Positions 9,767-39,157 of a stretch of DNA of 40,665 nucleotides are shown here, piece after piece. Source of the DNA: a virus. Lineage: Duplodnaviria; Heunggongvirae; Uroviricota; Caudoviricetes. The notes beneath the pieces were generated by a model. It searched no databases. It saw only the letters and a list, made by a program, of their open reading frames with translations, and had not been told where the DNA came from. The position numbers and the translations under genes are program-made. The stretch lies in IMG/VR virus record IMGVR_UViG_2660238524_000003; one strand, written 5' to 3'. Within the stretch, counting starts at the first letter, position 1. Each line of letters begins with the position of its first letter.

Positions 9767-9792
9767 TTATTTAAAACCTCGGTTTACGAGAA
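9767..9792. other. gix/hix-like crossover site (left)
   Basis: TTATTTAAAACCTCGGTTTACGAGAA, a 26-bp imperfect palindrome with the AAACC-NN-GGTTT core of Gin/Hin/Cin sites as recalled. Confidence 0.6.
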
Positions 9793-10488: not shown

Positions 10489-10490
10489 CG

Positions 10491-11024: not shown

Positions 11025-11027
11025 GAC

Positions 11028-11058
11028 AAGGCCCGATAACGGGCCTTAATTTTTATTC
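11028..11058. terminator. stem-loop between convergent assembly genes
   Basis: ggcccg-ataa-cgggcc hairpin (11030-11045) followed by T-rich run. Confidence 0.45.
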
Positions 11059-11580
11059 AGGCTTTTGTGGCCATTCAGGATTTGCCGTATCCACACGGTT
11101 GACCAGAACACTGTAGCGTTCCCATGCTTCCAGTCGTGTGCGTTCCTCGTCTGTTGCCATATTCAGCCTGACAGCGCGTTCCAGCGGCTGGATGACTGAT
11201 TCAGCTTCGGAAAGCAATGCGGCCTTTTGTGATTCGGCCTGTTGTTGCTGTTCGTCAGCCGTATAAATCCGTTTAACCACAGCTCCGTCCTTAAACATCC
11301 ACTTACCGGAATCATCGGTCCGACGATTGGCCGTTATATCGGGAACCTCGACGACGCTAAAACCTTCGGGATTAAGCGTGGAGGCATCTCTGGTGATGGC
11401 GACAATAATATTATTTTCATCGTAAACAATCTTTATGGTGTCTGGCTGAAAGTTTTTCACTTCCTCATACCAGTTTTTTCCGTCCTCAGAGTAAAGCCAG
11501 ATAACTCCGTGTTTCTTTGTTAACTCATACTGTTCCAGTGTTTTAGCATTACCCGCTTTTATGTTCTTTAAGTGCATCAT
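11053..11580 (-). CDS. tail fibre assembly protein (expressed orientation)
   Basis: 175 aa, immediately downstream of H on the same strand. Confidence 0.88.
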
Positions 11581-11581
11581 A

Positions 11582-24105: not shown

Positions 24106-25857
24106 ATGATTCAGGACGCTTTTGTGCGCCAGCGTGCGCGGCAACTTTACTGGCAGGGTTATCCGCCCGCAGAAATATCACGTCTGATGGGAATAAACCC
24201 GAACACGATTTATGCGTGGAAAAAACGTGACCAGTGGGATGAAACGCCACCCGTGCAGCGTGTCACGCAGTCCATCGATGCGCGCCTCATCCAGCTTACT
24301 GAAAAACAGAATAAAACAGGCGGTGACTTTAAGGAAATAGACCTGCTGACCCGGCAGCTTAAAAAGCTGCATGATGGCCAGCCGGATGTGATGGCCGCAG
24401 GAAAGAAAGGCCGGGCGAAAAAACTCAAAAATCATTTCACGCCGGAACAGATTGCCGCACTGCGGGAAAAAATCATCAGCAGGCTGGAGTGGCATCAGCG
24501 GGGCTGGTTTGACTCCCTGACCCTTTGCAGGGAAGCCGGGATACGTAACAGGATGATCCTGAAATCCCGACAGATTGGGGCGACCTGGTATTTTGCACAG
24601 GAAGCACTGCTGATGGCGCTGCGTGACGATGTGGCGCAACCTTACCAGCGTAACCAGATTTTTTTGTCTGCGTCGCGTCGTCAGGCGTTCCAGTTTAAAA
24701 GCATTATTCAGAAGGCCGCGGCTGAAGTTGATGTGGAGCTGAAAGGGGGCGATAAAATCATCCTCTCCAACGGCGCAGAGCTGCATTTTCTCGGCACTTC
24801 TGCTGCGTCGGCACAGTCCTATACGGGCAATTTTTATTTTGATGAATTTTTCTGGGTCAGTCGCTTTGCTGAACTGCGCAAGGTGGCTGGCGCTATGGCA
24901 ACCCTCAGCGGACTGCGGCGCACCTACTTCTCCACGCCATCCACCGAAACGCACGAGGCATACGCCTACTGGAACGGCGACCGCTGGAACGAGAAAAAGG
25001 CCTCGCATAAACGCCAGCGTTTTTCTGTGGACTGGAAAACGCTGCATAATGGGCTTATCTGCCCTGACCGGACGTGGCGGCAAATTGTCACGCTGGAAGA
25101 TGTGGTTAATCACGGCTGGAAACACACCGATATCGACGAAATTCGTGATGAAAACACCGAAGACGAGTTCCTCAATCTCTATATGTGTGAGTTTGTCCGC
25201 GAAGGGGAATCGGCATTTAACCTGAATATCCTGATTGGCTGCGGTGTTGACGGATACGACGACTGGAAAGACTGGAAACCTTTTGCTCCCCGCCCGATGG
25301 GGAATCGTCCGGTATGGATTGGGTATGACGCAAACGGCAGTAGTGGCAACGGCGACAGCGGCGCTGTGTCCGTGGTGGTTCCTCCGGCTGTTCCTGGCGG
25401 CCGTTTTCGAACGGTGGAGACGCGACGCGTTCAGGGGCTGGAGTTTGAAGAACAGGCCAGAGTCATTGAAGAGTTCACGTGTCGCTACAACGTGGAACAC
25501 ATCGGCATTGATGTGACGGGCGGGAACGGGGAGGCTGTTTATCAGATAGTGAAGCGGTTTTTCCCTGCTGCTATTCCGTACACCTTCACGCTGTCATCAA
25601 AACGGTCGCTGGTACTGAAAATGCTGCAAATAATGCGTGCCGGGCGGTGGGAATACGATCGCGCCGAACGCGAGCTGGTCGCGGCCTTTAACGCCGTGCG
25701 TAAGGTGAAAACACCGGGCGGCTTTATCACTTACGAAACGGACCGCGCGAGGGGGATCAGCCACGGCGACCTTGCGTGGGCAACCATGCTTGCTGTCATT
25801 AACGAACCAATTGGCGGCGAAGGAGAAAACGAGCGTTTCATGGTTATGGAGTTCTGA
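24106..25857 (+). CDS. terminase ATPase (large) subunit P
   Basis: 583 aa, size and position as P2 gpP. Confidence 0.93.
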   Translation: MIQDAFVRQRARQLYWQGYPPAEISRLMGINPNTIYAWKKRDQWDETPPVQRVTQSIDARLIQLTEKQNKTGGDFKEIDLLTRQLKKLHDGQPDVMAAGKKGRAKKLKNHFTPEQIAALREKIISRLEWHQRGWFDSLTLCREAGIRNRMILKSRQIGATWYFAQEALLMALRDDVAQPYQRNQIFLSASRRQAFQFKSIIQKAAAEVDVELKGGDKIILSNGAELHFLGTSAASAQSYTGNFYFDEFFWVSRFAELRKVAGAMATLSGLRRTYFSTPSTETHEAYAYWNGDRWNEKKASHKRQRFSVDWKTLHNGLICPDRTWRQIVTLEDVVNHGWKHTDIDEIRDENTEDEFLNLYMCEFVREGESAFNLNILIGCGVDGYDDWKDWKPFAPRPMGNRPVWIGYDANGSSGNGDSGAVSVVVPPAVPGGRFRTVETRRVQGLEFEEQARVIEEFTCRYNVEHIGIDVTGGNGEAVYQIVKRFFPAAIPYTFTLSSKRSLVLKMLQIMRAGRWEYDRAERELVAAFNAVRKVKTPGGFITYETDRARGISHGDLAWATMLAVINEPIGGEGENERFMVMEF

Positions 25858-26903
25858 TGAGCAGAAAAAATAAAAAAGTGCGCATGAGTTCACGCATTGA
25901 TCTCGCTGATGCGCTCAGGAAAGAATCATCGCTCAGTGCATTCACATTTGATGGTCCTTATCGCCTGACCGGGCATGACCTGCTGGACAATATGTACTGT
26001 GCTGATAACGGGCGGTGGTATGAAACCCCGGTGGACTGGTACGGTCTGGCAAGAGCAGCCCGGCAAACGTCCTGGCATCAGTCTGCGCTTTACTTTAAGC
26101 GCAATGTATTACTCGGTTGCTACATCCCGCACCCGCTGCTTTCCCGGCAGGATTTCTCGGCGCTGGCGCTGGACTGGTTTGTGTTCGGTAACGCATTCCT
26201 TGAGCTTCGAAGCAATATGCTCGGCGAACCGCTTAAATTACGGCACGCCCTGGCGAAATACATGCGACGCGGAAGCGATCTTGAATCATGGTGGTATGTG
26301 CAGGATGGCAAGGACGCGTTTCAGTTTCGTCCTGGCAAAGTGTGCCACCTGATGAATCCGGATATTAACCAGGAAATCTACGGCATGCCGGAATATCTTG
26401 GCGCATTACTCTCGGCCAGCCTTTCTCATTCGGCGGACATGTTCAGAAAACTGTACTACGACAACGGATCCCACGCCGGGTGCATCATCTACATCGGTGC
26501 AGCGCAGGTAAACCGCGAAAGCATGGACTCCCTGAAAGAAACGCTACAGGGGGCACGTGGTGGTGGTGCGTTTAAAAACGTGCTCATTCATGCGCCCAAC
26601 GGGGGCAAAGAGGGGGTGCAAATTTTGCCGTTCCAGCAGATCACCGCAAAAGATGAATTCATGAATGTTAAGGCGGCATCCCGTGATGATGTGCTGGCTG
26701 CGCACCGCGTTCCGCCGCAACTGATGGGGGCGATGCCGGGCGAAAAAAGTGCGTTTGGCGATGTGGAGAAGGCAGCGCGGGTTTACGCAATTAACGAGCT
26801 GATGCCCGTTATGGAGGCTATGAAGCACATCAATGACTGGCTTGGCGAAGAGGTGATCCGTTTTAACTCTTATGCTCTTCTTGATGAAAAAACAGCCCCG
26901 TGA
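25857..26903 (+). CDS. portal protein Q
   Basis: 348 aa, size and position as P2 gpQ; TGATG overlap with P. Confidence 0.93.
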   Translation: MSRKNKKVRMSSRIDLADALRKESSLSAFTFDGPYRLTGHDLLDNMYCADNGRWYETPVDWYGLARAARQTSWHQSALYFKRNVLLGCYIPHPLLSRQDFSALALDWFVFGNAFLELRSNMLGEPLKLRHALAKYMRRGSDLESWWYVQDGKDAFQFRPGKVCHLMNPDINQEIYGMPEYLGALLSASLSHSADMFRKLYYDNGSHAGCIIYIGAAQVNRESMDSLKETLQGARGGGAFKNVLIHAPNGGKEGVQILPFQQITAKDEFMNVKAASRDDVLAAHRVPPQLMGAMPGEKSAFGDVEKAARVYAINELMPVMEAMKHINDWLGEEVIRFNSYALLDEKTAP

Positions 26904-26917
26904 TGGGGCTGTCCTTT

Positions 26918-27442
26918 TTACCAGAGTTGAACCATTTTCTGGGTGCCGTCAGGCTTGAGATTATCAATTTCAGAGAGAACGTAATATTGAATGGCTTCAC
27001 AAACGGTGGTGTAGGGTGAATTACCTTCTTTAAGTGGCACGATATTATTATTAACGCGAACCTGTATTTCATCGTTATACATTGCGATCGAAACAGGAGT
27101 GTGCACGAACGCGACTTCGCCAGGTGTGTCGTCAACCACCGTTTCAATACTAAAAGTCAGTTTTCGCTCATCATTGCTGCCCCGTGCTTTGGGGGTAGCG
27201 GCAGGGATCTGGGATAAAGGCATTCTGCGAAATCCTTCGGCTGCTTCCAGTCCGCATGAAACGTAATGCTGGCGATTACCGTCGCTATCTGTCCAGGTCT
27301 GTGATGGCAGCTCCAGCGAGATTTCATAAGCATCAACAATGCCCTGGGCAAGGCGTACAAGCGGGGTCAGATCTTCATTGCGGCGAAAGCTCTCCTTTAC
27401 CTGCTCCCGTTTTTCTCTTAACTGCTTGTAATTAATGACCAT
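26918..27442 (-). CDS. hypothetical protein (cargo between portal gene and cos-like region)
   Basis: 174 aa from ATG 27442 with GGAGG RBS 8 nt upstream; no family recognised. Confidence 0.6.
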   Translation of the reverse strand: MVINYKQLREKREQVKESFRRNEDLTPLVRLAQGIVDAYEISLELPSQTWTDSDGNRQHYVSCGLEAAEGFRRMPLSQIPAATPKARGSNDERKLTFSIETVVDDTPGEVAFVHTPVSIAMYNDEIQVRVNNNIVPLKEGNSPYTTVCEAIQYYVLSEIDNLKPDGTQKMVQLW

Positions 27443-27817
27443 AAGACAGCCTCCATTGATTTCTTTGCTCGTATTTTGCACTTATGAAGTATGGTCGGCA
27501 AGGTGCCGTATCGCTGACGCGCTTCGCTTGTCTGCTGCTTCGCCGGGGCATAAAAAATTTATGCCCCGGCTCTCCAGCTCCTGTATCAATCAGATAATTT
27601 CACGACGCCTTCCAGTTTATCGCCACCATCGACGGTCAGACTCTTACGCAATTCCACCGCGTTGACTGCATGTTCTCGCTGCCTCAGTGCGATTTTGACG
27701 GCCTTACCTTTCACCCCATCAAATCAAAAGCCCTCACGCCTTTTTCATGCTCAGCGTGAGAAATATGGCCATTCTGTTGTGTCTCTGCGACATCGTTCAG
27801 GGAATGCTATTTACCCC

Positions 27818-27835
27818 CTGAAACGCGGGCTGTTC
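27818..27835 (-). other. candidate cos-like sequence
   Basis: - strand GGTGACGGGGGAACAGCC loosely resembles the P2 cohesive end as recalled (GGCGAGGCGGGGAAAGCAC). Confidence 0.2.
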
Positions 27836-27941
27836 CCCCGTCACCTGCGCGCAGAAAAAGCGCGTTTTTTTGTGCACGCACGGATCCTTGACGGATCCAG
27901 CCGCCATGCGGGCCGGAAGGGTAAAAAGTCGTTCAAAAAAA

Positions 27942-27968
27942 TTGTGCAAATTTGTGCACTTTTGTGCA
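27942..27968 (+). repeat. three tandem 10-bp TTGTGCA repeats
   Basis: TTGTGCA at 27942, 27952 and 27962 (exact 10-bp phasing), just upstream of a TTGACC -35-like element. Confidence 0.7.
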
Positions 27969-27988
27969 GGTAAGCATGCCTATATATT

Positions 27989-28020
27989 TGACCGTGGCTT
28001 GCCTTTGATGTAGTTTATAC
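27989..28020 (+). promoter_or_regulatory. candidate promoter of cargo locus
   Basis: TTGACC followed ~17 nt later by TAGTTT/TATAC. Confidence 0.3.
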
Positions 28021-28068
28021 GTCACAAAAACCACAAAACGTGGTTATGATTTCTATGAGGGGGTTGAT

Positions 28069-28104
28069 ATGAAAAAAATGTATGATGAATTTGATGGTTT
28101 CTAA
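28069..28104 (+). CDS. 11-codon leader micro-ORF (MKKMYDEFDGF)
   Basis: GAGGGG RBS 6 nt upstream; followed 20 nt later by a strong terminator. Confidence 0.3.
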   Translation: MKKMYDEFDGF

Positions 28105-28123
28105 GCTACGTTGACCTCTAATG

Positions 28124-28151
28124 AGGCGGGGATTTGCTCCCCGCCTTTTTT
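28124..28151 (+). terminator. rho-independent terminator upstream of cargo gene
   Basis: gaggcgggga/tccccgcc 8-bp GC stem followed by T6. Confidence 0.7.
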
Positions 28152-28165
28152 ATGGATGAAATAGG

Positions 28166-28663
28166 ATGAACCCAATAACACTACAAATCATCAGCAATGC
28201 TATTGTTCTGCTTGGCGTTTTGGTTGCCATTGGAACCATTATCTACAATGTGCGTACCGCAAAAAAAACTCAAACGGCCAACTTTCTTTTTGAGAGTCGG
28301 CAAGATATGCAATATATAGAGTCATTGCATACCCTGAAACAAGTGCATCGTTCAGGCAAATCATTTCGTTCTTATGTTTTTCCTTGTGATGGTTGCATAA
28401 TAACAGATGAAGAAATGGCCGAGCGTCGAAAATTTCAATATATTTTAAATTTTTACGAGCGAGTTGCTGTAAGTATTCGTGAAGGTATTTATGATGAAAA
28501 AATGATAAAAAGAACATCTTACACAACAGTTGTAGAGACATATGATATTGCCGAGCCATTAATTAAAGCAATCAGAGAAAGCATTAATTCGGATACTACA
28601 TATCAAGAATTCGAATGGTTAGTAAGAAGATGGAAAGCTAATCCTTTACGGAAAAACAAATAA
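28166..28663 (+). CDS. membrane-anchored hypothetical protein (cargo gene 1)
   Basis: 165 aa; N-terminal TM helix (ITLQIISNAIVLLGVLVAIGTIIY) then a charged domain; AT-rich codon usage unlike the phage core. Confidence 0.7.
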   Translation: MNPITLQIISNAIVLLGVLVAIGTIIYNVRTAKKTQTANFLFESRQDMQYIESLHTLKQVHRSGKSFRSYVFPCDGCIITDEEMAERRKFQYILNFYERVAVSIREGIYDEKMIKRTSYTTVVETYDIAEPLIKAIRESINSDTTYQEFEWLVRRWKANPLRKNK

Positions 28664-28874
28664 TGTTTTACCCTTTAATTTACAAGTAACACAGGGGGAA
28701 GTGTGACACAGAATCCGTTTTCATTTTATGACTTTTTGGGCTATCTAATTCCAGGTGGGTTATTCCTGTTTATCCTTTTTTTGTTTTCTATTGAAATTAA
28801 CCCTGTTTATATAGAAGGTATTCTTAACCATATCCTGAAATATAAAGAAATAATAAGTGTATTTATATATGTGG

Positions 28875-28882
28875 TATTAATC
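28875..28882. repeat. IS1 target-site duplication (left copy)
   Basis: TATTAATC immediately left of the IS1 end. Confidence 0.85.
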
Positions 28883-28897
28883 GGTAATGACTCCAAC

Positions 28898-29401
28898 TTA
28901 CTGATAGTGTTTTATGTTCAGATAATGCCCGATGACCTTGTCATGCAGCTCCACCGATTTTGAGAACGACAGTGACTTCCGTCCCAGCCTTGCCAGATGT
29001 TGTCTCAGATTCAGGTTATGCCGCTCAATTCGCTGAGTGTAACGCTTGCTGATTACGTGCAGCTTTCCCTTCAGGCGGGATTCATACAGCGGCCAGCCAT
29101 CCGTCATCCATACCACGACCTCAAAGGCCGACAGCAGGCTTAGAAGACGCTCCAGTGTGGCCAGAGTGCGTTCACCGAATACGTGCGCAACAACCGTCTT
29201 CCGGAGCCTGTCATACGCGTAAAACAGCCAGCGCTGGCGCGATTTAGCCCCGACGTATCCCCACTGTTCGTCCATTTCCGCGCAGACGATGACGTCACTG
29301 CCCGGCTGTATGCGCGAGGTTACCGACTGCGGCCTGAGTTTTTTAAATGGCGGAAAATCGTGTTGAGGCCAACGCCCATAATGCGGGCGGTTGCCCGGCA
29401 T
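28898..29401 (-). CDS. insB: IS1 transposase InsB
   Basis: 167-aa ORF recognised as IS1 InsB; made as an InsAB' frameshift fusion. Confidence 0.9.
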
Positions 29402-29595
29402 CCAACGCCATTCATGGCCATATCAATGATTTTCTGGTGCGTACCGGGTTGAGAAGCGGTGTAAGTGAACTGCAGTTGCCATGTTTTACGGCAGTGAGAG
29501 CAGAGATAGCGCTGATGTCCGGCGGTGCTTTTGCCGTTACGCACCACCCCGTCAGTAGCTGAACAGGAGGGACAGCTGATAGAAACAGAAGCCAC
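29320..29595 (-). CDS. insA: IS1 InsA
   Basis: 91-aa ORF ([23 protein letters not shown]...) recognised as IS1 InsA. Confidence 0.9.
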
Positions 29596-29650
29596 TGGAG
29601 CACCTCAAAAACACCATCATACACTAAATCAGTAAGTTGGCAGCATCACC

Positions 29651-29658
29651 TATTAATC
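29651..29658. repeat. IS1 target-site duplication (right copy)
   Basis: TATTAATC immediately right of the IS1 end. Confidence 0.85.
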
Positions 29659-29721
29659 GTTCTATCATATATTTCAGGTCACTTCATATCTATTCTATCA
29701 TCCTGTTTAATTGAAAAATAC

Positions 29722-30321
29722 ATGAACAGTAAACTTGGGTATCCTTCAATTTATCTGTTTTCTAAAAGAAGCTCCCTGAAAATAAAACGACATAATACTA
29801 AGTTCAGTATAGTTAATTTTATTCGTGGAGTTTTTTTATTTCCTGTATCAGCTTTTGATAAAGCAGAACATCATAAAACCACACTGCATTCTATACTTAT
29901 TAAAGTCTTTTGGCCGCAAATACGAGATGGTTATATAAATGTTTTTTCTGTATCTACGCTATATCGACGTAAGGGCTTGAGGGGCGATCTTTTTCGCCTT
30001 GCTTATCATTATGTGTATGAACATTCTAAAAATCATCAGGTGAAAATGCAAAACTATGTTGCTTTGTATGGTTTTTGTAGAAACATTACATTTGTTTTTC
30101 TCGCTTCAGTCTGGTTGCTTATGTTCCTGCTCCTTCTATCCTTTTTAATAGATATAAATATCAGACTGTTACCTTTTTGTTTTCTTCTCTTGTTTTGTAT
30201 TGCTGCATCCCGAGTATTTTATTATGGTTTTGTTAAGTATTATCGCCGCTATTCTCTTGAGGTTTTAATGGCATTTGCGGTACTTCAGCACGATAAAAAA
30301 ACTTCGGCAATTTCATCATGA
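29722..30321 (+). CDS. C-terminal ORF of the IS1-split membrane protein gene
   Basis: 199-aa ORF from an internal in-frame ATG; C-terminal TM helices; no obvious SD. Confidence 0.5.
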   Translation: MNSKLGYPSIYLFSKRSSLKIKRHNTKFSIVNFIRGVFLFPVSAFDKAEHHKTTLHSILIKVFWPQIRDGYINVFSVSTLYRRKGLRGDLFRLAYHYVYEHSKNHQVKMQNYVALYGFCRNITFVFLASVWLLMFLLLLSFLIDINIRLLPFCFLLLFCIAASRVFYYGFVKYYRRYSLEVLMAFAVLQHDKKTSAISS

Positions 30322-30332
30322 TTTGAAACATT

Positions 30333-30355
30333 GGCACCCTGTTAGCAAGGGTGCC
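30333..30355. terminator. stem-loop between convergent cargo and partition genes
   Basis: ggcaccct/agggtgcc 8-bp stem. Confidence 0.35.
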
Positions 30356-30404
30356 AGAATGATGTGTTGGTCTGTATTTTATTAGTTCACATACAATTAT
30401 CAGA

Positions 30405-30719
30405 TTATTCTGGGAATAAGGTCTGAATATTCTTTTTTATTTTATAAAAATTGCATTCAACTCCGCTAGGCTGATTATCCTGGTATGTTTCCTTGATGCT
30501 AACGGTATTGAAGGGGAGGTTGTCCTCTGGCCATTCGGCCATCCAGTAGGCAAATGCTGGGTTGCGCTTTATGAGCGCTAGCCCAGCCAGAAAGGCCGCG
30601 CGTTGCGCGCGGCTGCGTTCGGAGGCTGGCAGGCTATCGAGGTAATTGCACGCCTCCTGTTCACTCTTGACGGCGGCGGGCTTCAGATAGAAACTTATCC
30701 GTCTGGTTGGTGTCGTCAT
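30405..30719 (-). CDS. ParR/StbB-like centromere-binding adaptor
   Basis: 104 aa from ATG 30719 (AAGGAG RBS), directly downstream of the ParM-like gene; ...LDSLPASERSRAQRAAFLAGLAL... resembles R1 ParR as recalled. Confidence 0.65.
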   Translation of the reverse strand: MTTPTRRISFYLKPAAVKSEQEACNYLDSLPASERSRAQRAAFLAGLALIKRNPAFAYWMAEWPEDNLPFNTVSIKETYQDNQPSGVECNFYKIKKNIQTLFPE

Positions 30720-30723
30720 TGGT

Positions 30724-31683
30724 TTACTCCTTGTCCATTGCGTACAGCCCATTAACCAGAGCAAACTGTGGCACCCCGTCCGCGATGAAAGTCGCATTAA
30801 CTCCGCAGACTTCGCGGATAGCGGGTGCCACAATCTCCGCCCCTCCACCGACAACCATCACCCGCCCGTAACCCGAAAAAACCGCCAGCGCGCGGATCAC
30901 GCGTTGTTTCAGTGTTTCTTCCTTTTCACGAATAACCGCCATCAGGCTGGCGTAATGCGCGTCATTGTGGATGTGCTGGCGCAGCCAGGCTTCATCATGG
31001 CGATGTTCGATAATGGTATTGGCGATGTGGTGACTGGTGCGCATACCGTTAGTGGCCATCACCGACAGTACGGCATCGGCCATCAGGGAAACGCCTACGT
31101 GTGGATCGCAAAACACCTGGCTGATACCTGCCAGTTGCCCTTGAACCTTTGCCACATCCAGCGTGGTTCCGCCTAAATCCACAATCAGCAGGGATTCAAA
31201 CGGACTCATGTCAGCCAGTGCTTTAAAGCCAGCCGGAATGGATTCAGGCATAACCCGCACGTTACGGATAGTGAATGCTTCGCCGTTCTGGTATTCCACC
31301 GGGCGCATAACGTTCGCTTTTTTGCGGTTGATGTTGGCCATGTCCGGCTGTGCGTTTGTGTCGAAATACTCGCTCAGTGGCAGGGTGACAACCACATCCA
31401 CCTCCTGTGGCGTGATGCCTGATTTGACCAGCGCGTGATGAATGGCGATTACATTCACATCGCTGTACTGGTATTGCGTGTCGGTCGTCTGGACAAAGCG
31501 ATCGCTAACCGGATCAAAACCATAGCGCACGCCATCAAGCATGTAGTTCGCGGGCTGCATGCCACCGAACGGCGCAGACCATTCCGACTTGAAGCTGTTC
31601 GGGCTGATGGCGTTGCGGCGTTCGCCATTCTCAGTCCATGCCAGCTTGATGTTGGTGGAGCCGTCGTCGATACAAATTTTCAT
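30724..31683 (-). CDS. ParM/StbA-like actin-family partition ATPase
   Basis: 319 aa; N-terminal MKICIDDGSTNIKLAW and later blocks (VMPESIPAG, IVDLGGTT, VGGGAE) match the ParM/StbA actin fold. Confidence 0.85.
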   Translation of the reverse strand: MKICIDDGSTNIKLAWTENGERRNAISPNSFKSEWSAPFGGMQPANYMLDGVRYGFDPVSDRFVQTTDTQYQYSDVNVIAIHHALVKSGITPQEVDVVVTLPLSEYFDTNAQPDMANINRKKANVMRPVEYQNGEAFTIRNVRVMPESIPAGFKALADMSPFESLLIVDLGGTTLDVAKVQGQLAGISQVFCDPHVGVSLMADAVLSVMATNGMRTSHHIANTIIEHRHDEAWLRQHIHNDAHYASLMAVIREKEETLKQRVIRALAVFSGYGRVMVVGGGAEIVAPAIREVCGVNATFIADGVPQFALVNGLYAMDKE

Positions 31684-31714: not shown

Positions 31715-31826
31715 TTTACGGGATTCTGAAATCCCGTTTTTGCCTGTTTTGTGCGCGCTTCATATATCGCTGCGCGTTTTTTGCTCATTTACGGGATTCG
31801 TAAGTCCCGTTTCTGTCTGTTTTTTG
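31715..31826. repeat. two ~39-bp palindrome-containing direct repeats upstream of the ParM-like gene
   Basis: TTTACGGGATTCTGAAATCCCGTTT (31715-31753, intergenic) and TTTACGGGATTCGTAAGTCCCGTTT (31788-31826, within the 3' end of gene A), 73 bp apart. Confidence 0.6.
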
Positions 31827-34582
31827 TTTCCACTGGTCAGGCCACCCCGCAGCAGGTCTGCTTTGCGGCTGGCGCGTTCAGTGGTTTCACTGATTCTCTG
31901 TGCGTGCTCTGCGTCGCGGATGGCGCGCAGCATGTCAGAAAGCACGGTAACGGGTGTTTTCATGGTGTTCTGGCCCTGCTGAAGTGTGGATGCCAGGCGT
32001 GCGGCGGCTTCAGGGTCTGATGCCCCCAGCTGTGCCAGATAGCTGGCGACCGGGTTATGGCGGATCTCCGTGCTGCTTACGCCATGATTACGGCTCAGGC
32101 GCTGCCAGAGCTGCGTGATTCGGCTGTCCGGGCGGGTATCCGGTTTGCGTACAATTTCAAATCCCTGCGGTGCAATGATGCTGCCGTCAACGTACAGACT
32201 GCCGCCCCGTAACAGGTGCTGCATCTGTTGTTCACCGATATGCAGGCCGAGAGATTCAGCAGACTCCCGCCATTCTTTAGCGAGTAATTCGTGGTTATCA
32301 GGCAAAGGCCGCTGCTGTTTGCGGCTCTGTGTCCAGCTCTGCATTTCATCGCTGCTGTTTTTTGCCTGTTTGTCACGAAGCGAACGCATCAGCGCCCGGC
32401 GTTCGTGTCGTTTCAGTGAGCGCATCCATTCGTTCACTTCAACGCCGTCAGGGAGCTGCGGCCACGGTGCTGGCCGTTCTTCCGGCTGTTCTGTCCCGTT
32501 GTTGTCCGTTTCCTGTACACGGGGACAGTTATTGCCACGAGTCCAAGGGGCGGCAGGGCCGCCCTGAAGGTCAAAACCATTTTCGCGGGCGCTGTCTTCC
32601 GCTTCCGGTTTACGTCTTACCAGCTTCCAGTTATCCGGATGCGTGCACACACGGGAGGATTCCCCGATGAGTGGTGACCAGATCCCGTAAATCTGTACGC
32701 TCTGTTCGCCGTAATCGTTCAGCTCATCTGCGAGGTCGTAGGCGGTGCGAATCAGGTAGTCCTTGCGTGGAACAAGCACGCCACCCTGTTTTTCAATGTA
32801 GGTGGCAAAACACCCGGCATCGGCGGCAGCGAGTACCGCATCCATTGCATCATCTTTCAGCCGTTGCGGGCCTTCCGGATTGCGTGCCATCTGGCTGGCA
32901 AGGCGGCGCAGTTCACGCCACACCTGACGGGAGGGGATGCCAAAGAACTGGAACTGACGGACCCGGTGAAGGCGCGCCCAGCCGATGGCGCGCTCCACGC
33001 TCTCGGCCATTGATTTTCCGGTTTCGTGGTCCACGCGTGGCTTGCCCGTTTTCGGGTCGATGCCATCCACGGCGCGGCTGTCCAGGTTCTTTCCGATGTA
33101 GGTGGCGATGTAGCTGGTTGGCGTGCCTTTTGAGCCGTCGACATACTCCACCTTAAAGCGCGGAGTAATATCATTGCCCAGCTCGTGGCGGTCTTCCTGA
33201 ATGGCAATATCGCGGGTATGGGACACAATGGTGTCGATTTCTTCCGGATGTGCAAAGACCATCATATGCCAGTGCACGGTGCCGTCATGATGAGGCTCCA
33301 CCGTGCGGATGCCATACCAGCGCAGGCCGTCGCGGTTCAGTTTTTTGCGGACCGCCGCAAAAAACGTGTTAACCAGGTAATCGCTGGAGTCGCGCATTGT
33401 GGCCCCGTTCCATTTGGGATTCGGATGACCGTTCTCCGTTGTGGCGTGGTATTTTGACGGGCAGGTGACAGTCAGAAACACCGCTTTGTCGCCACGGGCT
33501 TCGGCCAGAAGTTCCAGTCCCTTCATGGTGGCCATCATTTCTGCCTTACGGTGAACCGGGTTACTTACTCCCGCGTAATACACTGTCTCGAGATCAATCG
33601 TGAACCCGTCTTCATTTTCCAGCATGAAACTTTTCAGGAAATCGCGTGTTTTCTCGCGCTGTGCGCGAAACTCGCTTAACGCGTCCTGGCTCAGATAGGG
33701 TGATGTTTTTCTGGAAACCAGACAGGCGGCGCGGAGTTGTTCTTCTCTCCACTCGCAACGTAACAGCCACAGTTTGCGTTTCCACCATTCCGCACAGGTC
33801 AGGCGAAGGATTGCGCCCGGCAGCAGCTCCGTGTCCGGTTCGTTCCTCCGGTCTTTGTCTGTTGTCAGTGCGTCATAATGTGGAGGCATGGCGTGCAGGT
33901 GTAACGCCATGCGGGCCAGCATCTGATACGCCTTCAGGGTTACATCCATGGTCAGCTCGCCATCGGTCGCGCCAAAGCCATCGCAGAGTTTTTCGAAGGT
34001 GCTGCTGAACATCGCCGCCGTCATGGTGGCCAGCGTCTGTATCTGGTGTTTGTTGAGCTGCGGCAGGTAAAGCAAATCGTCCAGGCGTTCGCGTCCGGCA
34101 AGGGAGCGATAACCCGGTGTCAGCCAGCGTCCGTCAGTGCTATCCAGACGTTCGAATATTTTGCGCAGGGTTCCGCGTGCATAGCGTTCCGCCTGCCAGC
34201 TCTTTTTGCCTTTCCGGCGATCGGCTTCCTGTTTTTTGCGCAGGAAGGAGAGGTGGCGAATAAGCGGATCGCGCAGATAGGACGGCAGCAGGCGCAGCGA
34301 GGCCATGGCTTCATCCACCGCGCCACGTGCCTGTTTTCTGGCGTCTCCTGCCAGTGTGATGGTTTTGTCCTGTTTTTCCTGTGCGTCCAGGCTTTTATTA
34401 ATCAGGTTGCCCAGCGGCGTGGCTGAGAACGCCGCATCAGCCATTTCCTGGCGGCGCTCGTTCTCTGCCCGGTAGGCATCCAGCCAGGAGGAAAGCGCGG
34501 ATTCAGGAGCGGGGATCCCCGTTCCTTCACGCCCCACTGCGTGGCGCGGTTGTTGCCAGTCCCTGAGGTACTCTGCCGTCAT
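31760..34582 (-). CDS. replication initiation endonuclease A (rolling-circle)
   Basis: 940 aa; H-x-H metal motif (HWHMMVF) and position as in P2-like phages. Confidence 0.88.
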   Translation of the reverse strand: MTAEYLRDWQQPRHAVGREGTGIPAPESALSSWLDAYRAENERRQEMADAAFSATPLGNLINKSLDAQEKQDKTITLAGDARKQARGAVDEAMASLRLLPSYLRDPLIRHLSFLRKKQEADRRKGKKSWQAERYARGTLRKIFERLDSTDGRWLTPGYRSLAGRERLDDLLYLPQLNKHQIQTLATMTAAMFSSTFEKLCDGFGATDGELTMDVTLKAYQMLARMALHLHAMPPHYDALTTDKDRRNEPDTELLPGAILRLTCAEWWKRKLWLLRCEWREEQLRAACLVSRKTSPYLSQDALSEFRAQREKTRDFLKSFMLENEDGFTIDLETVYYAGVSNPVHRKAEMMATMKGLELLAEARGDKAVFLTVTCPSKYHATTENGHPNPKWNGATMRDSSDYLVNTFFAAVRKKLNRDGLRWYGIRTVEPHHDGTVHWHMMVFAHPEEIDTIVSHTRDIAIQEDRHELGNDITPRFKVEYVDGSKGTPTSYIATYIGKNLDSRAVDGIDPKTGKPRVDHETGKSMAESVERAIGWARLHRVRQFQFFGIPSRQVWRELRRLASQMARNPEGPQRLKDDAMDAVLAAADAGCFATYIEKQGGVLVPRKDYLIRTAYDLADELNDYGEQSVQIYGIWSPLIGESSRVCTHPDNWKLVRRKPEAEDSARENGFDLQGGPAAPWTRGNNCPRVQETDNNGTEQPEERPAPWPQLPDGVEVNEWMRSLKRHERRALMRSLRDKQAKNSSDEMQSWTQSRKQQRPLPDNHELLAKEWRESAESLGLHIGEQQMQHLLRGGSLYVDGSIIAPQGFEIVRKPDTRPDSRITQLWQRLSRNHGVSSTEIRHNPVASYLAQLGASDPEAAARLASTLQQGQNTMKTPVTVLSDMLRAIRDAEHAQRISETTERASRKADLLRGGLTSGNKKQTETGLTNPVNEQKTRSDI

Positions 34583-36365: not shown

Positions 36366-36776
36366 CTATGCGTTAAATACGGTGCACTGTGCGTCATCAA
36401 TGAATGCGACTTGAGAGCGCTCTATCAGGCGGAGATTTGTCAGAATTTCTGATTCCCTTATGGGGTGAGGAGTGATCAGGTATTTATCCTGTAACCCGGC
36501 GATAATGGTGTATCGCTGTAGCTCCGAGCCAATTGTGTAAATAAGGCGTCCGGTGTTAGACAAATCCAGTCCGGTGACTGGTTGTGTTCTGAGAACCGCC
36601 AGTTCAGCATCCTGTTTTGCGATAATTTCGGCTGCTTCTGCCGTGACTCTTGCGACTATCAGTGTGTGGGTTGCGACGTCCATATGATTATTTGCTATGG
36701 CTTTTTTCGCTACTTCGTTTTCTGTCTTTGAAATTTCTTTCAGTGCTCTGATGATACCTTCTTCTTTTGCGTGCAT
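36366..36776 (-). CDS. hypothetical early protein
   Basis: 136 aa ORF on early-operon strand. Confidence 0.5.
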   Translation of the reverse strand: MHAKEEGIIRALKEISKTENEVAKKAIANNHMDVATHTLIVARVTAEAAEIIAKQDAELAVLRTQPVTGLDLSNTGRLIYTIGSELQRYTIIAGLQDKYLITPHPIRESEILTNLRLIERSQVAFIDDAQCTVFNA

Positions 36777-36869
36777 TTTTGTATCTCCGTTATTTGCGTG
36801 TGCGAATACCTCCGTTAATACGGATGGTTTTCACGTTTTCTTATTTAATTTGATGTTTTATTTGTATCG

Positions 36870-36983
36870 TTATTCACCAGTGAAAAAACGTTCAATCTTT
36901 TTTACTGAATGAATAATTCGCACAATGCCAATTGCGCAGACCACTGAAATAATCAGAACAATCCATGACATAAATATACTCAT
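36870..36983 (-). CDS. 37-aa hydrophobic peptide (MSIFMSWIVLIISVVCAIGIVRIIHSVKKIERFFTGE)
   Basis: Read manually; ATG overlaps the stop of the upstream gene (ATGA); single predicted TM helix. Below track cutoff. Confidence 0.3.
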   Translation of the reverse strand: MSIFMSWIVLIISVVCAIGIVRIIHSVKKIERFFTGE

Positions 36984-37222
36984 GCGATATTCCCCAGCTT
37001 ATACGGTTCAATATGTTCCCCGCATTCTGCGGCACAGATCAGCTCGGAAAGTTCGTTAAGTGCATCCAGATCATCAGCGTAAAAAGCCACGTCATACAGA
37101 CTCCGGATTGCCCTGGTCAATGAGTCACGGGCTGCACGTTCAGCATGAGCGCCTGATGCACTTAAGCGAAAATAAAAACGCTCAAGTGCTTTGTTAATGA
37201 GAGTTTTATATTCTTTGCCCAT
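36980..37222 (-). CDS. hypothetical early protein
   Basis: 80 aa from ATG 37222 (AAAGGG RBS); track ORF extends to 37273. Confidence 0.5.
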   Translation of the reverse strand: MGKEYKTLINKALERFYFRLSASGAHAERAARDSLTRAIRSLYDVAFYADDLDALNELSELICAAECGEHIEPYKLGNIA

Positions 37223-37233
37223 CGCAACGCCCT

Positions 37234-37512
37234 TTAATCTGCTTTCTGAATTTCTGCTTCTGAATCCATACAAATAATTTCGATATAGGGTTCATCGCCA
37301 TTAGTCTTACGTGCTTTTTCCGCTTCGCTAATGATTTCGTGTACAGTCTGGTACGGAAGTTCTACGGTCAGGCGCGTGCCGTTCAGATAAACGTAAGTAG
37401 CTGCATTTTTTTCGGATGGAACAACTCCGTCAATGGCTGATGCGCGTAATAACAGTTCACCGCGAAAATCAATAAAACGGATAAATACACCTTGTGCATG
37501 CTCTTTGGTCAT
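37234..37512 (-). CDS. hypothetical early protein
   Basis: 92 aa from ATG 37512 (AGGTG RBS). Confidence 0.5.
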   Translation of the reverse strand: MTKEHAQGVFIRFIDFRGELLLRASAIDGVVPSEKNAATYVYLNGTRLTVELPYQTVHEIISEAEKARKTNGDEPYIEIICMDSEAEIQKAD

Positions 37513-37522
37513 AAAGCACCTG

Positions 37523-37873
37523 TTATAAATCAGCCTGTTTAATAAAACTTTGCCCGTGAAGCAGACGATCAACCGTGCGAAGTGCTTCGTATAATGTGAA
37601 ATCCTGCCCGAACTGATTGTCGCCGTTGCTCAGTGCAAAAATGCGGTTTCCGGTAAATGGGTTGCGCTGGCATCTGTGAACCACGATTCCTGCTTTTTCA
37701 ATCAGCCAAGTGTGTTCACCAATTTGTTTTACTGGGTAGCCATCCGGCGTTGCGTGTGTTTCGCTCAGGCTGTAGCGAGAGTTGCTACGTGATGCACTGG
37801 TAGCGAAACGGTTAGCATGGCGTTCCGCACCGTTGCGGAAGCGCTGCTGTGAAGAATTGCGCTGTAGTTTCAT
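37523..37873 (-). CDS. hypothetical early protein
   Basis: 116 aa ORF. Confidence 0.5.
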   Translation of the reverse strand: MKLQRNSSQQRFRNGAERHANRFATSASRSNSRYSLSETHATPDGYPVKQIGEHTWLIEKAGIVVHRCQRNPFTGNRIFALSNGDNQFGQDFTLYEALRTVDRLLHGQSFIKQADL

Positions 37874-38010
37874 ATTAAAACTCTGTACCTTCGGTAAGGT
37901 GTACTCGTGTCACCTTGTATTGATTTGTGGTATTTTTTTTGTGTGTCTAGGACTTGGACTGGCCGGTTCAGGTCCTGGCTTATGTTTAATTAAATTGTTA
38001 AGAGGTTTTC

Positions 38011-38202
38011 ATGTCAGAAGATAAAAAAGTTGTTAATTTGTTGAGTGAACTTAGTGCTGCTCTGGATAACATTAACCCTCCCAGGGTAAAAACGACGGGT
38101 GATAAAGACGCATTAAACACAGAGATTCATATATTACTGGCGTTAGTAACTGACAAAATTCAGCGTAAATACCCACCTGTCACACAACTGGTTGATTTTT
38201 AA
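38011..38202 (+). CDS. hypothetical 63-aa protein on the opposite strand
   Basis: AAGAGG RBS 6 nt upstream of ATG; hairpin right after its stop. Confidence 0.45.
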   Translation: MSEDKKVVNLLSELSAALDNINPPRVKTTGDKDALNTEIHILLALVTDKIQRKYPPVTQLVDF

Positions 38203-38208
38203 TTTGAT

Positions 38209-38631
38209 TTATGCCGGGCTGCTCCCGGCATCTTCTAGCTGCCATAATGTCTCGTCACCTGATAGAGCAAAACGAAATGAGTGAAGTATATCCCCCCGAG
38301 AGAAGCTCACGGCTACAGCTGCGGGAAAGTCAAATATAATCCCACCTTCATTTTTAAAACGATTACGCAATTGATAGGCTATCGGTTTGATTTGTGCAGG
38401 AAGAGTATCTATATCTCTTCCATTGACAACAGAATCTTTGTTTTCAAGTACTGATTTAGCGATTAGATATAGATGCCAGTAACTGGTTACAATTGTTACT
38501 CCTGTGATGTGTCGTAAATTAATTGCAATTCGTCCGTTATTATGTTTTTCCGCAAGGTATTTCAGGTTATCAATTAATGCTTGGTCATTTTTTGAAATAG
38601 TTATTGTGAAATCTGACGTGTTTGTTTTCAT
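38209..38631 (-). CDS. hypothetical early protein
   Basis: 140 aa from ATG 38631 (GAGG RBS); the longer track ORF to 38874 overlaps the upstream gene out of frame. Confidence 0.45.
   Translation of the reverse strand: MKTNTSDFTITISKNDQALIDNLKYLAEKHNNGRIAINLRHITGVTIVTSYWHLYLIAKSVLENKDSVVNGRDIDTLPAQIKPIAYQLRNRFKNEGGIIFDFPAAVAVSFSRGDILHSFRFALSGDETLWQLEDAGSSPA
38211..38231. terminator. hairpin between convergent genes
   Basis: atgccggg-ctgct-cccggcat 8-bp stem; weak U tracts. Confidence 0.35.
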
Positions 38632-38635
38632 ACGA

Positions 38636-39157
38636 TTAGTTGCCTCTGTTGTTTCTGAGTTGGTCCAGTTTTGAGCTTCTGCCTGTATAAACTCGCTTAC
38701 CGTTAATGGTCTGGCAGTCTTCTTTATTAGCTGGAGAGAACTTCCTTTTCTGGCGGTCATACGTCCAGTAACTTTTCCAGTTGTGCCATTCTGGGGGCTC
38801 GTGCTCTGGTAGCTCATCAGCCAACTTGTCCCACTCTTTGGCGTTAAACCACCATACTCCGTCTGAGTTTTCATCTTCCGGGTTTGTGCGCGTCTTGTGT
38901 CCCGGCATTTGACCGCGATGAATGGCTACGCGCAGTGCAGATTTTGTTAGCCCAATATATGCCGCGCCTTTTTCCAGAGAGCAAAGCCCGGCGATCGGAC
39001 CATCCAGCCGCAAAGTCGCTCCTTTTTTGTAGGAACGCTTTTTCTTGTTTTCTTCGTGCTCGTCGTCGTTGGCGGCATCAATGGATCCGCTGAGTGCGTC
39101 ACTTTCCTGAAGTGGTTGGTGGTCAGATAACTCTTTATCGGCAATGAAGTCCCGCAT
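38636..39157 (-). CDS. first early-operon gene, possible Cox/Apl-like HTH regulator
   Basis: AAGAGGA RBS; helix-turn-helix-like segment (AAYIGLTKSALRVAIHRGQMPG); divergent from the repressor gene. Longer than P2 Cox, so function is inferred from position. Confidence 0.5.
   Translation of the reverse strand: MRDFIADKELSDHQPLQESDALSGSIDAANDDEHEENKKKRSYKKGATLRLDGPIAGLCSLEKGAAYIGLTKSALRVAIHRGQMPGHKTRTNPEDENSDGVWWFNAKEWDKLADELPEHEPPEWHNWKSYWTYDRQKRKFSPANKEDCQTINGKRVYTGRSSKLDQLRNNRGN

What the first reader, a model, noticed from the sequence alone, without database searches (positions are those of the whole stretch)
27989..30355. AT-rich two-gene membrane cargo locus at the old/tin-equivalent position: candidate uncharacterised defence or exclusion system
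The locus sits between the replication/partition genes and the packaging end, where P2 carries old and tin and where P2-like phages are known to exchange anti-phage cargo. It is strongly AT-rich compared with the phage core. It has its own promoter-like element, an 11-codon leader ORF followed by a strong terminator, then a 165-aa N-terminally anchored protein and a ~280-aa polytopic membrane protein. I recognise neither protein.
Basis: partly seen in the sequence, partly recalled or inferred. Interest (0 to 1): 0.8.

Follow-up and report, generated by a model that had tools for sequence, protein, structure and literature searches.

The report
Stacked prophage cargo with conserved micro-ORF
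The AT-rich island is not a two-gene system: it is two separable, function-unknown phage accessory cassettes in a known P2 hotspot, one broken by IS1, the other (DUF4760) always preceded by a tiny conserved peptide gene and a terminator that nobody seems to have described.

Summary
The cargo spans about 27970-30364 between portal gpQ and ParMR/gpA of a P2-like prophage. GC is 0.34-0.38 against 0.52-0.60 in the core. It holds an 11-codon ORF, a strong terminator, a 165-aa single-TM protein (Pfam DUF4760), and a 4-TM protein split by IS1. Removing IS1 restores 280 aa.

The locus is already catalogued, apparently untested, as "System #3, DUF4760" (1102 occurrences) in Rousset 2022.

The two-gene reading fails. 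Outside one near-identical E. coli lineage, 28 genomic and 53 viral DUF4760 loci lack gene 2, and 59 of 66 gene-2 loci lack DUF4760.

Three things appear new:
- DUF4760's constant partner is the micro-ORF (…DEFDGF-stop) plus terminator. It is present in about 92 of 93 loci, down to 26% protein identity, with third-codon-position variation only.
- The same micro-ORF occurs in at least 84 phage loci without DUF4760.

A defence or exclusion role is inferred from position only.

The parts
27943..27969 (+). Three TGTGCA repeats spaced 10-11 bp, at the last conserved backbone bases before the variable cargo
   Evidence: Read from the sequence. The 81 nt ending at about 27969 are 96-100% identical in hundreds of E. 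coli genomes that then diverge.
27988..28016 (+). Promoter-like element of the DUF4760 cassette (TTGACC, 17-nt spacer, TAGTTT)
   Evidence: Read from the sequence. Conserved in the Kluyvera cassette. Not listed by the consensus scan. Function is inferred.
28029..28045 (+). 5' stem-loop AACCAC-aaaac-GTGGTT in the putative 5' UTR
   Evidence: One search lists the hairpin. The stem is kept in Kluyvera copies while the loop differs.
28069..28104 (+). Micro-ORF (leader) MKKMYDEFDGF*, preceded by SD GAGGGGG at 28057-28063
   Evidence: An equivalent micro-ORF ending in an acidic/aromatic motif was found by pattern upstream of 82 of 93 DUF4760 loci. 10 of the 11 misses carry variants. In 29 unique versions of the last six codons, the third position varies in 80 of 174 cells, against 3 of 174 at position 1 and 15 of 174 at position 2. 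No Rfam family matches.
28114..28118 (+). ACCTC (anti-SD-like) motif 10-14 nt after the leader stop
   Evidence: Conserved in cassettes whose protein is at least about 73% identical. It can form an 8-10 bp duplex with the leader SD region (-10 to -13 kcal/mol; z about -1 to -2.8). It is absent in distant clades.
28123..28151 (+). Intrinsic terminator (GAGGCGGGGA / TCCCCGCCTT plus T-run) between the leader and DUF4760
   Evidence: 42 of 47 unique cassettes have a hairpin plus T-run. It starts 16-18 nt after the stop in 29 of them and 19-24 nt in 10. At least 12 different stem sequences all pair.
28152..28169 (+). Mini-ORF MDEIG* whose stop overlaps the DUF4760 start (ATGA), inside the conserved ATGGATGAAA box
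   Evidence: Read from the sequence. Similar overlapping mini-ORFs occur in several but not all cassettes. Its significance is unknown.
28166..28663 (+). Gene 1: 165-aa DUF4760 protein with an N-terminal TM helix and a cytoplasmic all-helical domain
28703..28882 (+). Gene 2, 5' part (GTG start, codons 1-60)
   Evidence: Annotated as a single 843-nt CDS in IS1-free phages.
28883..29650 (-). IS1 (768 bp; insA 29320-29595 and insB 28898-29401 on the minus strand), with 8-bp target duplication TATTAATC at 28875-28882 and 29651-29658
   Evidence: This exact junction was not found in 5,426 complete E. coli genomes.
29659..30321 (+). Gene 2, 3' part. The restored protein is 280 aa with 4 TM segments and a K/R-rich central loop
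   Evidence: reconstruction. phrog_12528. No Pfam family. The PADLOC Csx27 HMM is hit by 16 of 16 family members, best E 5.6e-8, mostly through the N-terminal ~65 residues. 1,107 clusters at 50% identity reach E<=1e-3.
30333..30355 (.). GC-rich hairpin GGCACCCT/AGGGTGCC between convergent gene 2 and parR
   Evidence: Read from the sequence. No T-run on either side. A role as a bidirectional terminator is inferred.

Best explanation
The interval holds two independent accessory ('moron') cassettes stacked in the gpQ-gpA hotspot of a P2-like prophage.

Cassette 1 (about 27970-28663) is self-contained. It comprises a promoter, a well-translated 11-codon micro-ORF (MKKMYDEFDGF), a strong intrinsic terminator and the DUF4760 gene. 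The DUF4760 start codon lies about 15 nt after the T-run and has no good SD. Most transcripts should therefore end after the micro-ORF, and DUF4760 should be made only by read-through. I infer that read-through is set by how the ribosome handles the conserved nascent peptide at its stop codon, that is, leader-peptide attenuation. DUF4760 itself is an N-out/C-in single-pass inner-membrane protein with an EP-domain-like helical bundle in the cytoplasm.

Cassette 2 is a 4-TM inner-membrane protein with a Csx27-like N-terminal module. Elsewhere it is a solitary gene next to xis/int of lambdoid prophages. Here IS1 has inactivated it.

Both are most likely lysogen-expressed membrane proteins that exclude or abort superinfecting phages. 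That function is inferred from position only.

Shown: the anatomy, the separability of the two genes, conservation of the micro-ORF plus terminator, and the fold and HMM resemblances.
Inferred: attenuation, topology, and the defence role.
For: Separability:
- None of 28 species-representative DUF4760 loci has a gene-2 homologue within 8 kb.
- 53 of 62 IMG/VR DUF4760 loci lack it. The 9 that have it are at least 98.8% identical to the window.
- 59 of 66 gene-2 loci lack DUF4760.
- Gene-2 homologues (44% identity) sit alone beside xis/int in lambdoid prophages.
- DUF4760 is the sole gene between portal and gpA in Kluyvera P2-like prophages. It also sits next to int, cI or Arc/Bro elsewhere.

Micro-ORF plus terminator:
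- Found in about 92 of 93 loci, including Pseudomonas, Alteromonas, Acinetobacter, Pasteurellaceae and Rhodovulum homologues at 26-37% identity.
- The codon-position pattern shows selection on the peptide.
- 42 of 47 unique cassettes have a hairpin plus T-run, starting 16-24 nt after the stop in 39 of them, with many compensatory stem versions.

Gene 2: Csx27 HMM hit in 16 of 16 members.

Hotspot: Rousset 2022 lists the pair as System #3 with 1102 occurrences and validated other cargo of the same hotspot as defence.
Against: - No antiterminator structure was found, and the ACCUC:SD pairing is clade-specific.
- A ribosome at the stop codon would end about 5-8 nt short of the hairpin. This is my estimate from published ribosome footprints. 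How stalling would relieve termination is therefore not shown.
- The same DEFDGF micro-ORF occurs in at least 84 phage loci without DUF4760. Some are at operon ends facing a convergent gene, with nothing to attenuate. That favours a peptide acting in trans.
- No PADLOC defence model matches DUF4760, and no experiment links either protein to phage resistance.
- Foldseek E-values for the EP domain are not significant (0.2-0.9). No sequence-profile link to the EP domain was detected.
- The Csx27 similarity is mainly the N-terminal ~65 residues.
Confidence: 0.5

Rival explanations
1. The micro-ORF is a gene in its own right. It makes a free acidic micropeptide (…DEFDGF-COOH) that acts in trans, and the terminator simply ends its abundant short transcript. 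With DUF4760 it could work as a labile antitoxin-like inhibitor: when infection shuts off host expression the peptide is lost and the membrane protein is released. Alternatively it could mimic acidic C-terminal tails ending in Phe, such as those of SSB or T7 gp2.5, and bind their partner proteins.
For: - DEFDGF-stop micro-ORFs occur in at least 84 IMG/VR loci without DUF4760, in 23 sequence contexts. These include after antiterminator Q, overlapping the stop of a gp49/66-family gene opposite the terminase, and before an unrelated 175-aa P2-hotspot gene. Most are followed by a hairpin 2-22 nt away.
- The motif is duplicated in some (MKDEFEWCDEFDGF*).
- The leader has a strong SD while DUF4760 has none.
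- The peptide resembles DUF4760's most conserved motif, YQEFEWL.
- It also resembles the T7 gp2.5 tail …DEDGDF*.
Against: - Free peptides of 8-13 residues are normally degraded within minutes.
- There is no covariation between peptide variants and the invariant protein motif.
- The hairpin distance is tightly constrained (16-18 nt) in DUF4760 cassettes. A plain gene-end terminator would not need that.
- No binding test was possible.
Confidence: 0.3
2. The first reader's reading, which is also the catalogue entry: DUF4760 and the 4-TM protein form one cooperative two-gene membrane defence system, for example sensor plus pore.
For: - The two genes lie 39 nt apart on the same strand with no terminator between them.
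- The pair is fixed in 289 of 5,426 complete E. coli genomes.
- It is listed as one system with 1102 occurrences.
Against: - Co-occurrence is limited to one near-identical lineage.
- Each gene is autonomous in all other lineages, including the same backbone without gene 2.
- IS1 (this window) and IS421 (strain LS4) insertions in the locus are tolerated.
Confidence: 0.1
3. The cassettes are not anti-phage. They might serve the phage's own cycle or host fitness, for example envelope or stress modulation in the lysogen, lysis timing, or DNA entry and exit.
For: - The P2 hotspot also carries non-defence cargo such as ParMR and cytolethal distending toxin.
- There is no match to validated defence models.
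- DEFDGF micro-ORFs sit in late-operon and packaging regions.
Against: - DUF4760 recurs at classic exclusion-gene positions: next to cI, int or immI-like genes, and in the old/tin hotspot.
- Gene 2's N-terminal module is shared with Cas13b-associated Csx27/tm_4 and PADLOC candidate PDC-M48A.
Confidence: 0.2

Closest known systems
Rousset et al. 2022 (PMC9122126), P2-hotspot 'System #3: DUF4760'
   Same: Both protein sequences are identical and sit in the same gpQ-gpA hotspot. The table notes '1 TM in protein 1, 4 TM in protein 2' and 1102 occurrences.
   Different: It is a catalogue entry only. The sequences are absent from that paper's tables of cloned systems, and no leader peptide, fold or separability analysis is given. 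This window's copy has IS1 in protein 2.
Leader-peptide transcription attenuators and arrest peptides (trp/pheL-type; TnaC, SpeFL and MsrDL-type nascent-peptide sensors; named from general knowledge)
   Same: A short, well-initiated uORF followed by an intrinsic terminator just upstream of the regulated gene. Conservation is concentrated in the last residues before the stop codon.
   Different: There are no runs of regulatory codons and no antiterminator was found. The inducing signal is unknown. The same uORF also occurs where there is no downstream gene.
EP domain of plant EDS1/PAD4/SAG101
   Same: It is the best structural match of the DUF4760 model by two methods, with 137-155 residues aligned. 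Both are all-helical bundles in immunity-associated proteins.
   Different: Sequence identity is only 6-11% and there is no profile match. DUF4760 has no lipase-like domain and is membrane-anchored. Ligand binding is untested. No TIR partner is nearby. The 1-TM protein of the P2-like AC1 2TM+1TM+TIR system is unrelated.
Csx27 (type VI-B1 CRISPR accessory membrane protein) and PADLOC tm_4 / PDC-M48A
   Same: A shared N-terminal motif plus the first TM helices. The HMM is hit by 16 of 16 close and 6 of 10 distant family members. Both are polytopic membrane proteins.
   Different: There is no Cas13b or CRISPR in the window. Gene 2 is about 280 aa against about 200 aa for Csx27. Its central cytoplasmic domain and C-terminal half are family-specific. 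E-values are only 1e-4 to 5e-8.
P2 old / tin / fun(Z) and other prophage exclusion genes
   Same: The same hotspot position and AT-rich, horizontally exchanged cargo. In P2, old is likewise transcribed opposite to the A gene.
   Different: There is no sequence or domain relationship. The phenotype is unknown.

Membership tests
Pfam DUF4760 (PF15956) | Full-length match to the family HMM above the gathering score | tested here: met
   E 1.8e-34, 119 bits against a cutoff of 25; residues 12-156 cover profile positions 2-141 of 141.
P2-like gpQ-gpA hotspot cargo (Rousset 2022) | Variable DNA lying between portal gpQ and replication gene gpA, flanked by conserved backbone | tested here: met
   Portal at 25857-26903 and gpA at 31760-34582. 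Backbone homology stops at about 27969 and resumes at about 30365. Identical proteins are listed in Table S5B.
Multi-gene defence system (gene 1 + gene 2) | Conserved co-occurrence of the component genes across diverged lineages | tested here: not met
   0 of 28 genomic loci and 0 of 53 diverged viral DUF4760 loci carry gene 2. 59 of 66 gene-2 loci lack DUF4760.
Multi-gene defence system (gene 1 + gene 2) | Anti-phage phenotype that requires both genes | not testable with these tools
   Needs cloning and phage challenge.
Leader-peptide transcription attenuator | Short translated ORF with an SD upstream of the regulated gene | tested here: met
   28069-28104 with SD GAGGGGG. The peptide is under purifying selection.
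Leader-peptide transcription attenuator | Intrinsic terminator between the leader and the gene | tested here: met
   28123-28151. Present in 42 of 47 unique cassettes with compensatory stem changes.
Leader-peptide transcription attenuator | Mutually exclusive antiterminator structure, or a ribosome position that blocks the terminator | tested here: inconclusive
   No conserved antiterminator was found. The SD:ACCUC pairing occurs only in one clade. Stop-codon read-through coupling was rejected. The stop-to-hairpin distance is conserved at 16-18 nt.
EDS1-family EP domain | EP-domain fold | tested here: inconclusive
EDS1-family EP domain | Sequence-profile match to the EP family, and fusion to an N-terminal lipase-like domain | tested here: not met
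   Pfam returned only DUF4760. The PDB sequence-profile search gave no EDS1, PAD4 or SAG101 hit. The protein is 165 aa with a TM helix in place of a lipase-like domain.
EDS1-family EP domain | Binding of TIR-derived ribosylated nucleotides in a basic cavity | not testable with these tools
   Needs biochemistry.
Csx27 (type VI-B accessory) | Match to the Csx27 HMM | tested here: inconclusive
   E 1.1e-5 for the window protein. 16 of 16 family members hit (best 5.6e-8), but mostly through profile positions 3-65.
Csx27 (type VI-B accessory) | Encoded next to cas13b and a CRISPR array | tested here: not met
   Neighbours are the DUF4760 gene and parR here, and xis/int in lambdoid prophages.
IS1 | 768 bp, terminal inverted repeats, insA/insB, 8-9 bp target duplication | tested here: met
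   It is 96-97% identical to annotated IS1 copies.

The most novel reading that the evidence does not exclude
The …DEFDGF-stop micro-ORF is a previously undescribed, widespread phage element. It would be either a ribosome-sensing arrest peptide or a free acidic micropeptide mimicking SSB/gp2.5-type tails. It would gate diverse prophage cargo. Its commonest partner, DUF4760, would be a membrane-tethered viral or bacterial relative of the plant EDS1 EP domain that triggers exclusion or abortive infection when the peptide signal changes.
Probability: 0.15. Interest if true: 0.85.

Novelty: new variant of a known kind. Interest (0 to 1): 0.6.

Why it matters
This is the third most frequent cargo of the E. 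coli P2-like defence hotspot: 1102 occurrences in Rousset 2022, and 289 of 5,426 complete genomes here. Its function is still unknown.

Showing that the real conserved unit is micro-ORF plus terminator plus DUF4760, rather than the annotated gene pair, tells experimenters what to clone and what to mutate.

If the micro-ORF senses translation or acts as a peptide ligand, it would be a new way for prophages to keep a membrane effector silent until infection. It recurs in many other phage contexts.

An EP-domain-like fold in phages would bear on the unexplained origin of the plant EDS1 family. A Csx27-like module in about 1,100 protein clusters gives Csx27 a wider family in which to study it.

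Tried and rejected
- PADLOC, Pfam and PHROGs scans of both proteins gave no characterised family.
- The Foldseek afdb50 library was unavailable.
- A PDB sequence-profile search with the DUF4760 alignment gave only chance hits at E 1.4.
- I tested whether the 1-TM protein of the P2-like AC1 2TM+1TM+TIR system is a DUF4760 relative. hhalign gave probability 0.4%, so this was rejected.
- I tested the P22 SieA-type annotation idea. tblastn against 50,697 phage records found no named exclusion protein, only 'hypothetical', 'DUF4760' and one 'putative promembrane protein'.
- Stop-codon read-through of the leader, coupling into DUF4760, was rejected. The next in-frame stop is not conserved.
- SD:anti-SD (ACCUC) sequestration as a universal feature was rejected. 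It occurs only in the clade with at least 73% protein identity.
- A CCUC:GAGG mini-antiterminator has only 3-4 bp. I judged it too weak by inspection.
- An Rfam search of 27400-30500 gave nothing near gathering scores.
- The P2 cos 19-mer, recalled from memory, was not found in the window.
- Literature searches for DUF4760, DEFDGF and the WP accessions found nothing describing function or leader.
- A search for the exact IS1 junction in complete E. coli genomes found none.
Full report
CONTEXT AND OBSERVATION

The window is a P2-like (Peduoviridae) prophage. The relevant genes are:
- capsid and terminase genes, then portal gpQ (25857-26903, +)
- a 187-aa ORF of unknown function (26918-27481, -; phrog_5091)
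- ParR-like and ParM partition genes (30405-31683, -)
- a 940-aa gpA replication protein (31760-34582, -)

The finding lies between ORF187 and parR. GC falls to 0.34-0.38 there, against 0.52-0.60 in the phage core. The one exception is a 0.55 block, which is IS1.

- a promoter-like TTGACC-17-TAGTTT (27988-28016)
- an 11-codon ORF, MKKMYDEFDGF* (28069-28104), behind a strong SD
- a 10-bp-stem terminator (28123-28147 plus T-run)
- a 165-aa ORF (28166-28663)
- a GTG-started ORF cut by a 768-bp IS1 (28883-29650) with an 8-bp duplication

Removing IS1 restores a 280-aa protein. Three deposited phages carry the IS1-free locus at 100% identity, annotated as two genes.

289 of 5,426 complete E. coli genomes carry at least 80% of the locus. 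Hundreds more share only the last 81 backbone bases on the left, or the parR end on the right. That fixes the cargo at about 27970-30364.

WHAT THE PROTEINS ARE

Gene 1 is a full-length member of Pfam DUF4760 (E 1.8e-34). It has one N-terminal TM helix followed by K/R-rich sequence, so the remaining ~135 residues should be cytoplasmic (topology is inferred).

Gene 2, once restored, has four TM segments and a basic central loop. It has no Pfam family and belongs to phrog_12528. Its family is large: 1,107 clusters at 50% identity reach E<=1e-3. All 16 aligned members hit the PADLOC HMM for Csx27, the membrane accessory protein of type VI-B1 CRISPR systems (best E 5.6e-8). Some also hit tm_4 and PDC-M48A. 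In distant members the match is confined to the N-terminal ~65 residues, which carry the NPFSFYDFLGYLIPGG motif and the first helices. The original Csx27 paper reported no Csx27 outside VI-B loci. This is remote similarity of one module, not membership. The gene-2 model (pLDDT 70) gave no informative fold match.

ARE THE TWO GENES ONE SYSTEM?

No evidence supports that.
- Gene-2 homologues at ~44% identity are solitary genes just upstream of xis/int in lambdoid prophages of E. coli and Enterobacter.
- DUF4760 homologues at 62-88% identity are solitary in several settings. In Kluyvera P2-like prophages, DUF4760 is the only gene between portal and gpA. In Lelliottia it follows int. In Serratia, Klebsiella and Providencia it sits among Bro/Arc/Ant-type accessory genes. 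In a Pseudomonas phage it is next to cI. In Alteromonas and Acinetobacter phages it is next to int.
- 0 of 28 species-representative loci pair the two genes.
- In IMG/VR, only the 9 DUF4760 loci at least 98.8% identical to the window have gene 2.
- 59 of 66 gene-2 loci lack DUF4760.
- L073/L074 have the same backbone (portal 99%, gpA 97.7%, ParM 98.7%) with a 78%-identity DUF4760 allele and no gene 2.

The pair is therefore a recent juxtaposition in one successful E. coli prophage lineage.

THE CONSTANT PARTNER OF DUF4760 IS THE MICRO-ORF

Aligning the upstream regions from four unrelated contexts showed that the 11-codon ORF and the hairpin travel with DUF4760.

Of 93 loci with enough upstream DNA, 82 match a simple pattern for the peptide. 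Ten of the other 11 carry variants:
- …DEFEWV*
- …WDENDGF*
- …VIGGF*
- …NEGWGG*
- …QEGFGGN*
- an extended …DEFDGFYIMK*

In the remaining locus a rearrangement removed the leader.

Phage homologues only 26-37% identical still have it:
- Pseudomonas: …EEYEGI*
- Alteromonas: MNLRDGWDDI*
- Acinetobacter: …MNEGWDF*

The identical peptide MKKFDEFDGF precedes proteins that share only ~40% identity with the window protein.

In 29 distinct nucleotide versions of the last six codons, the third position departs from the majority base in 80 of 174 cells. Position 1 departs in 3 of 174 and position 2 in 15 of 174. Selection therefore acts on the peptide, not on the RNA.

42 of 47 unique cassettes have a hairpin plus T-run after the stop. 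It begins 16-18 nt downstream in 29 of them and 19-24 nt in 10. At least a dozen different stem sequences all pair.

The DUF4760 start follows the T-run by about 5-20 nt and lacks an SD. A conserved ATGGATGAAA box there often opens a 4-5-codon mini-ORF that overlaps the start codon.

Rfam has no matching family. Full-text searches for DUF4760 or the peptide found nothing relevant.

HOW IT MAY WORK

The anatomy is that of a leader-peptide attenuator. Most transcripts should stop at 28151, so DUF4760 would be made only on read-through. The residues next to the stop codon are the conserved ones, as in nascent-peptide sensors.

I could not find the switch.
- No antiterminator is conserved.
- The ACCUC box 10-14 nt after the stop can pair with the leader SD (8-10 bp), but only in the clade with at least 73% protein identity.
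- Read-through coupling is excluded.

Only 35 of 119 matches precede a DUF4760 gene. The other 84 are also micro-ORFs, nearly all of 8-34 codons, in 23 sequence contexts:
- MYDEFDGF* after antiterminator Q and a terminator, ahead of the lysis genes
- MKDEFDGF* overlapping the stop of a gp49/66-family gene and followed by a terminator, opposite the terminase gene
- MKKKRMNDEFDGF* after a ClpX-zinc-finger protein and before an unrelated 175-aa gene of the same P2 hotspot
- duplicated forms such as MKDEFEWCDEFDGF*
- a 21-aa form ahead of an SbcD/Mre11-like gene (my reading of the sequence; not scanned) in >160-kb phage contigs

Most are again followed by a hairpin. Because some have no downstream gene to regulate, a trans-acting micropeptide is a serious rival.

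The peptide resembles acidic tails ending in Phe. T7 gp2.5 ends …DEDGDF* and T7 gp4 ends …NDTDF*. E. coli SSB ends …DDDIPF (from memory). It also resembles DUF4760's own most conserved motif, YQEFEWL. Both resemblances are unexplained leads.

KNOWN OR NEW?

Rousset et al. 2022 catalogued this hotspot. The sequences do not occur in their tables of cloned systems, so it appears untested.

They did validate other cargo of this hotspot, including a 2TM+1TM+TIR system in phage AC1. That system's 1-TM protein is unrelated to DUF4760. A 2026 survey notes that 19% of P2-like elements carry only unknown genes at their main defence loci.

So the cargo, its position and its 'unknown candidate' status are already known. 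Four things appear new:
- the separability of the two genes
- the conserved micro-ORF plus terminator and its wider distribution
- the EP-like fold
- the Csx27-like module

VERDICT

In this window gene 2 is dead (IS1), while the DUF4760 cassette is intact. A defence or exclusion role is plausible but unshown.

Noticed in passing
IMG/VR loci L183-L299 (e.g. L185, L187, L189, L197, L212, L231, L253): DEFDGF-stop micro-ORFs of 8-34 codons occur in at least 84 phage loci with no DUF4760 gene, in 23 sequence contexts. Most are followed by a hairpin or terminator 2-22 nt away, and some have the motif duplicated. This looks like a widespread, undescribed phage micro-gene or regulatory device.
   Followed up: partly
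L212 8755-9382; L186, L190, L240: A second P2-hotspot cassette uses the same kind of leader. MKKKRMNDEFDGF* plus a hairpin precedes a 174/175-aa protein (MKKYEYMLMKEALR…) with no Pfam or PADLOC match, next to an Ead/Ea22-like gene. In L186, L190 and L240 the leader's 5' part is replaced by the 3' end of parR.
   Followed up: partly
window 28601-28633 (protein residues 146-156): The most conserved stretch of DUF4760 proteins, YQEFEWLxxRW, is near-invariant down to ~28% identity and diverges only in the two most distant Acinetobacter phage homologues (26-27%). It resembles the leader's C-terminal hexapeptide (DEFDGF, DEFEWV). No covariation was seen.
   Followed up: partly
window 26918-27481 (-): The 187-aa ORF (phrog_5091, no Pfam) between portal and the cargo is itself variable. 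It is present in some, and absent from other, otherwise near-identical loci (L049, L051 and L056 have it; L050, L052, L053 and L055 do not). It is a third independent cassette.
   Followed up: partly
window 27943-27969: Three TGTGCA repeats 10-11 bp apart sit at the exact backbone/cargo junction. They are shared by hundreds of P2-like prophages with different cargo. They could be a protein-binding or recombination site.
   Followed up: no
window 28883-29650: This IS1 insertion junction was not found in any of 5,426 complete E. coli genomes, so it looks private to the source strain. Strain LS4 (NZ_CP024717) has an IS421 in the same locus.
   Followed up: partly
window 30405-31683 (-): A ParM/ParR (StbA / Plasmid_stab_B) partition module lies next to gpA. 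This fits the published remark that about a quarter of P2-like phages carry one. The longest ORF for parR (149 aa, TTG start) overlaps parM, and deposited annotations start it later (104 aa).
   Followed up: no
window 9501-12500 and 36501-39000: Two further low-GC stretches (0.40-0.48) lie elsewhere in the prophage. They may be additional exchanged cargo or tail-fibre cassettes.
   Followed up: no
L182 2207-3067 (Acinetobacter phage A3926.3): A DUF4760-like region lies inside a longer 286-aa annotated ORF, with no recognisable leader micro-ORF. It may be a fusion or a divergent architecture.
   Followed up: no
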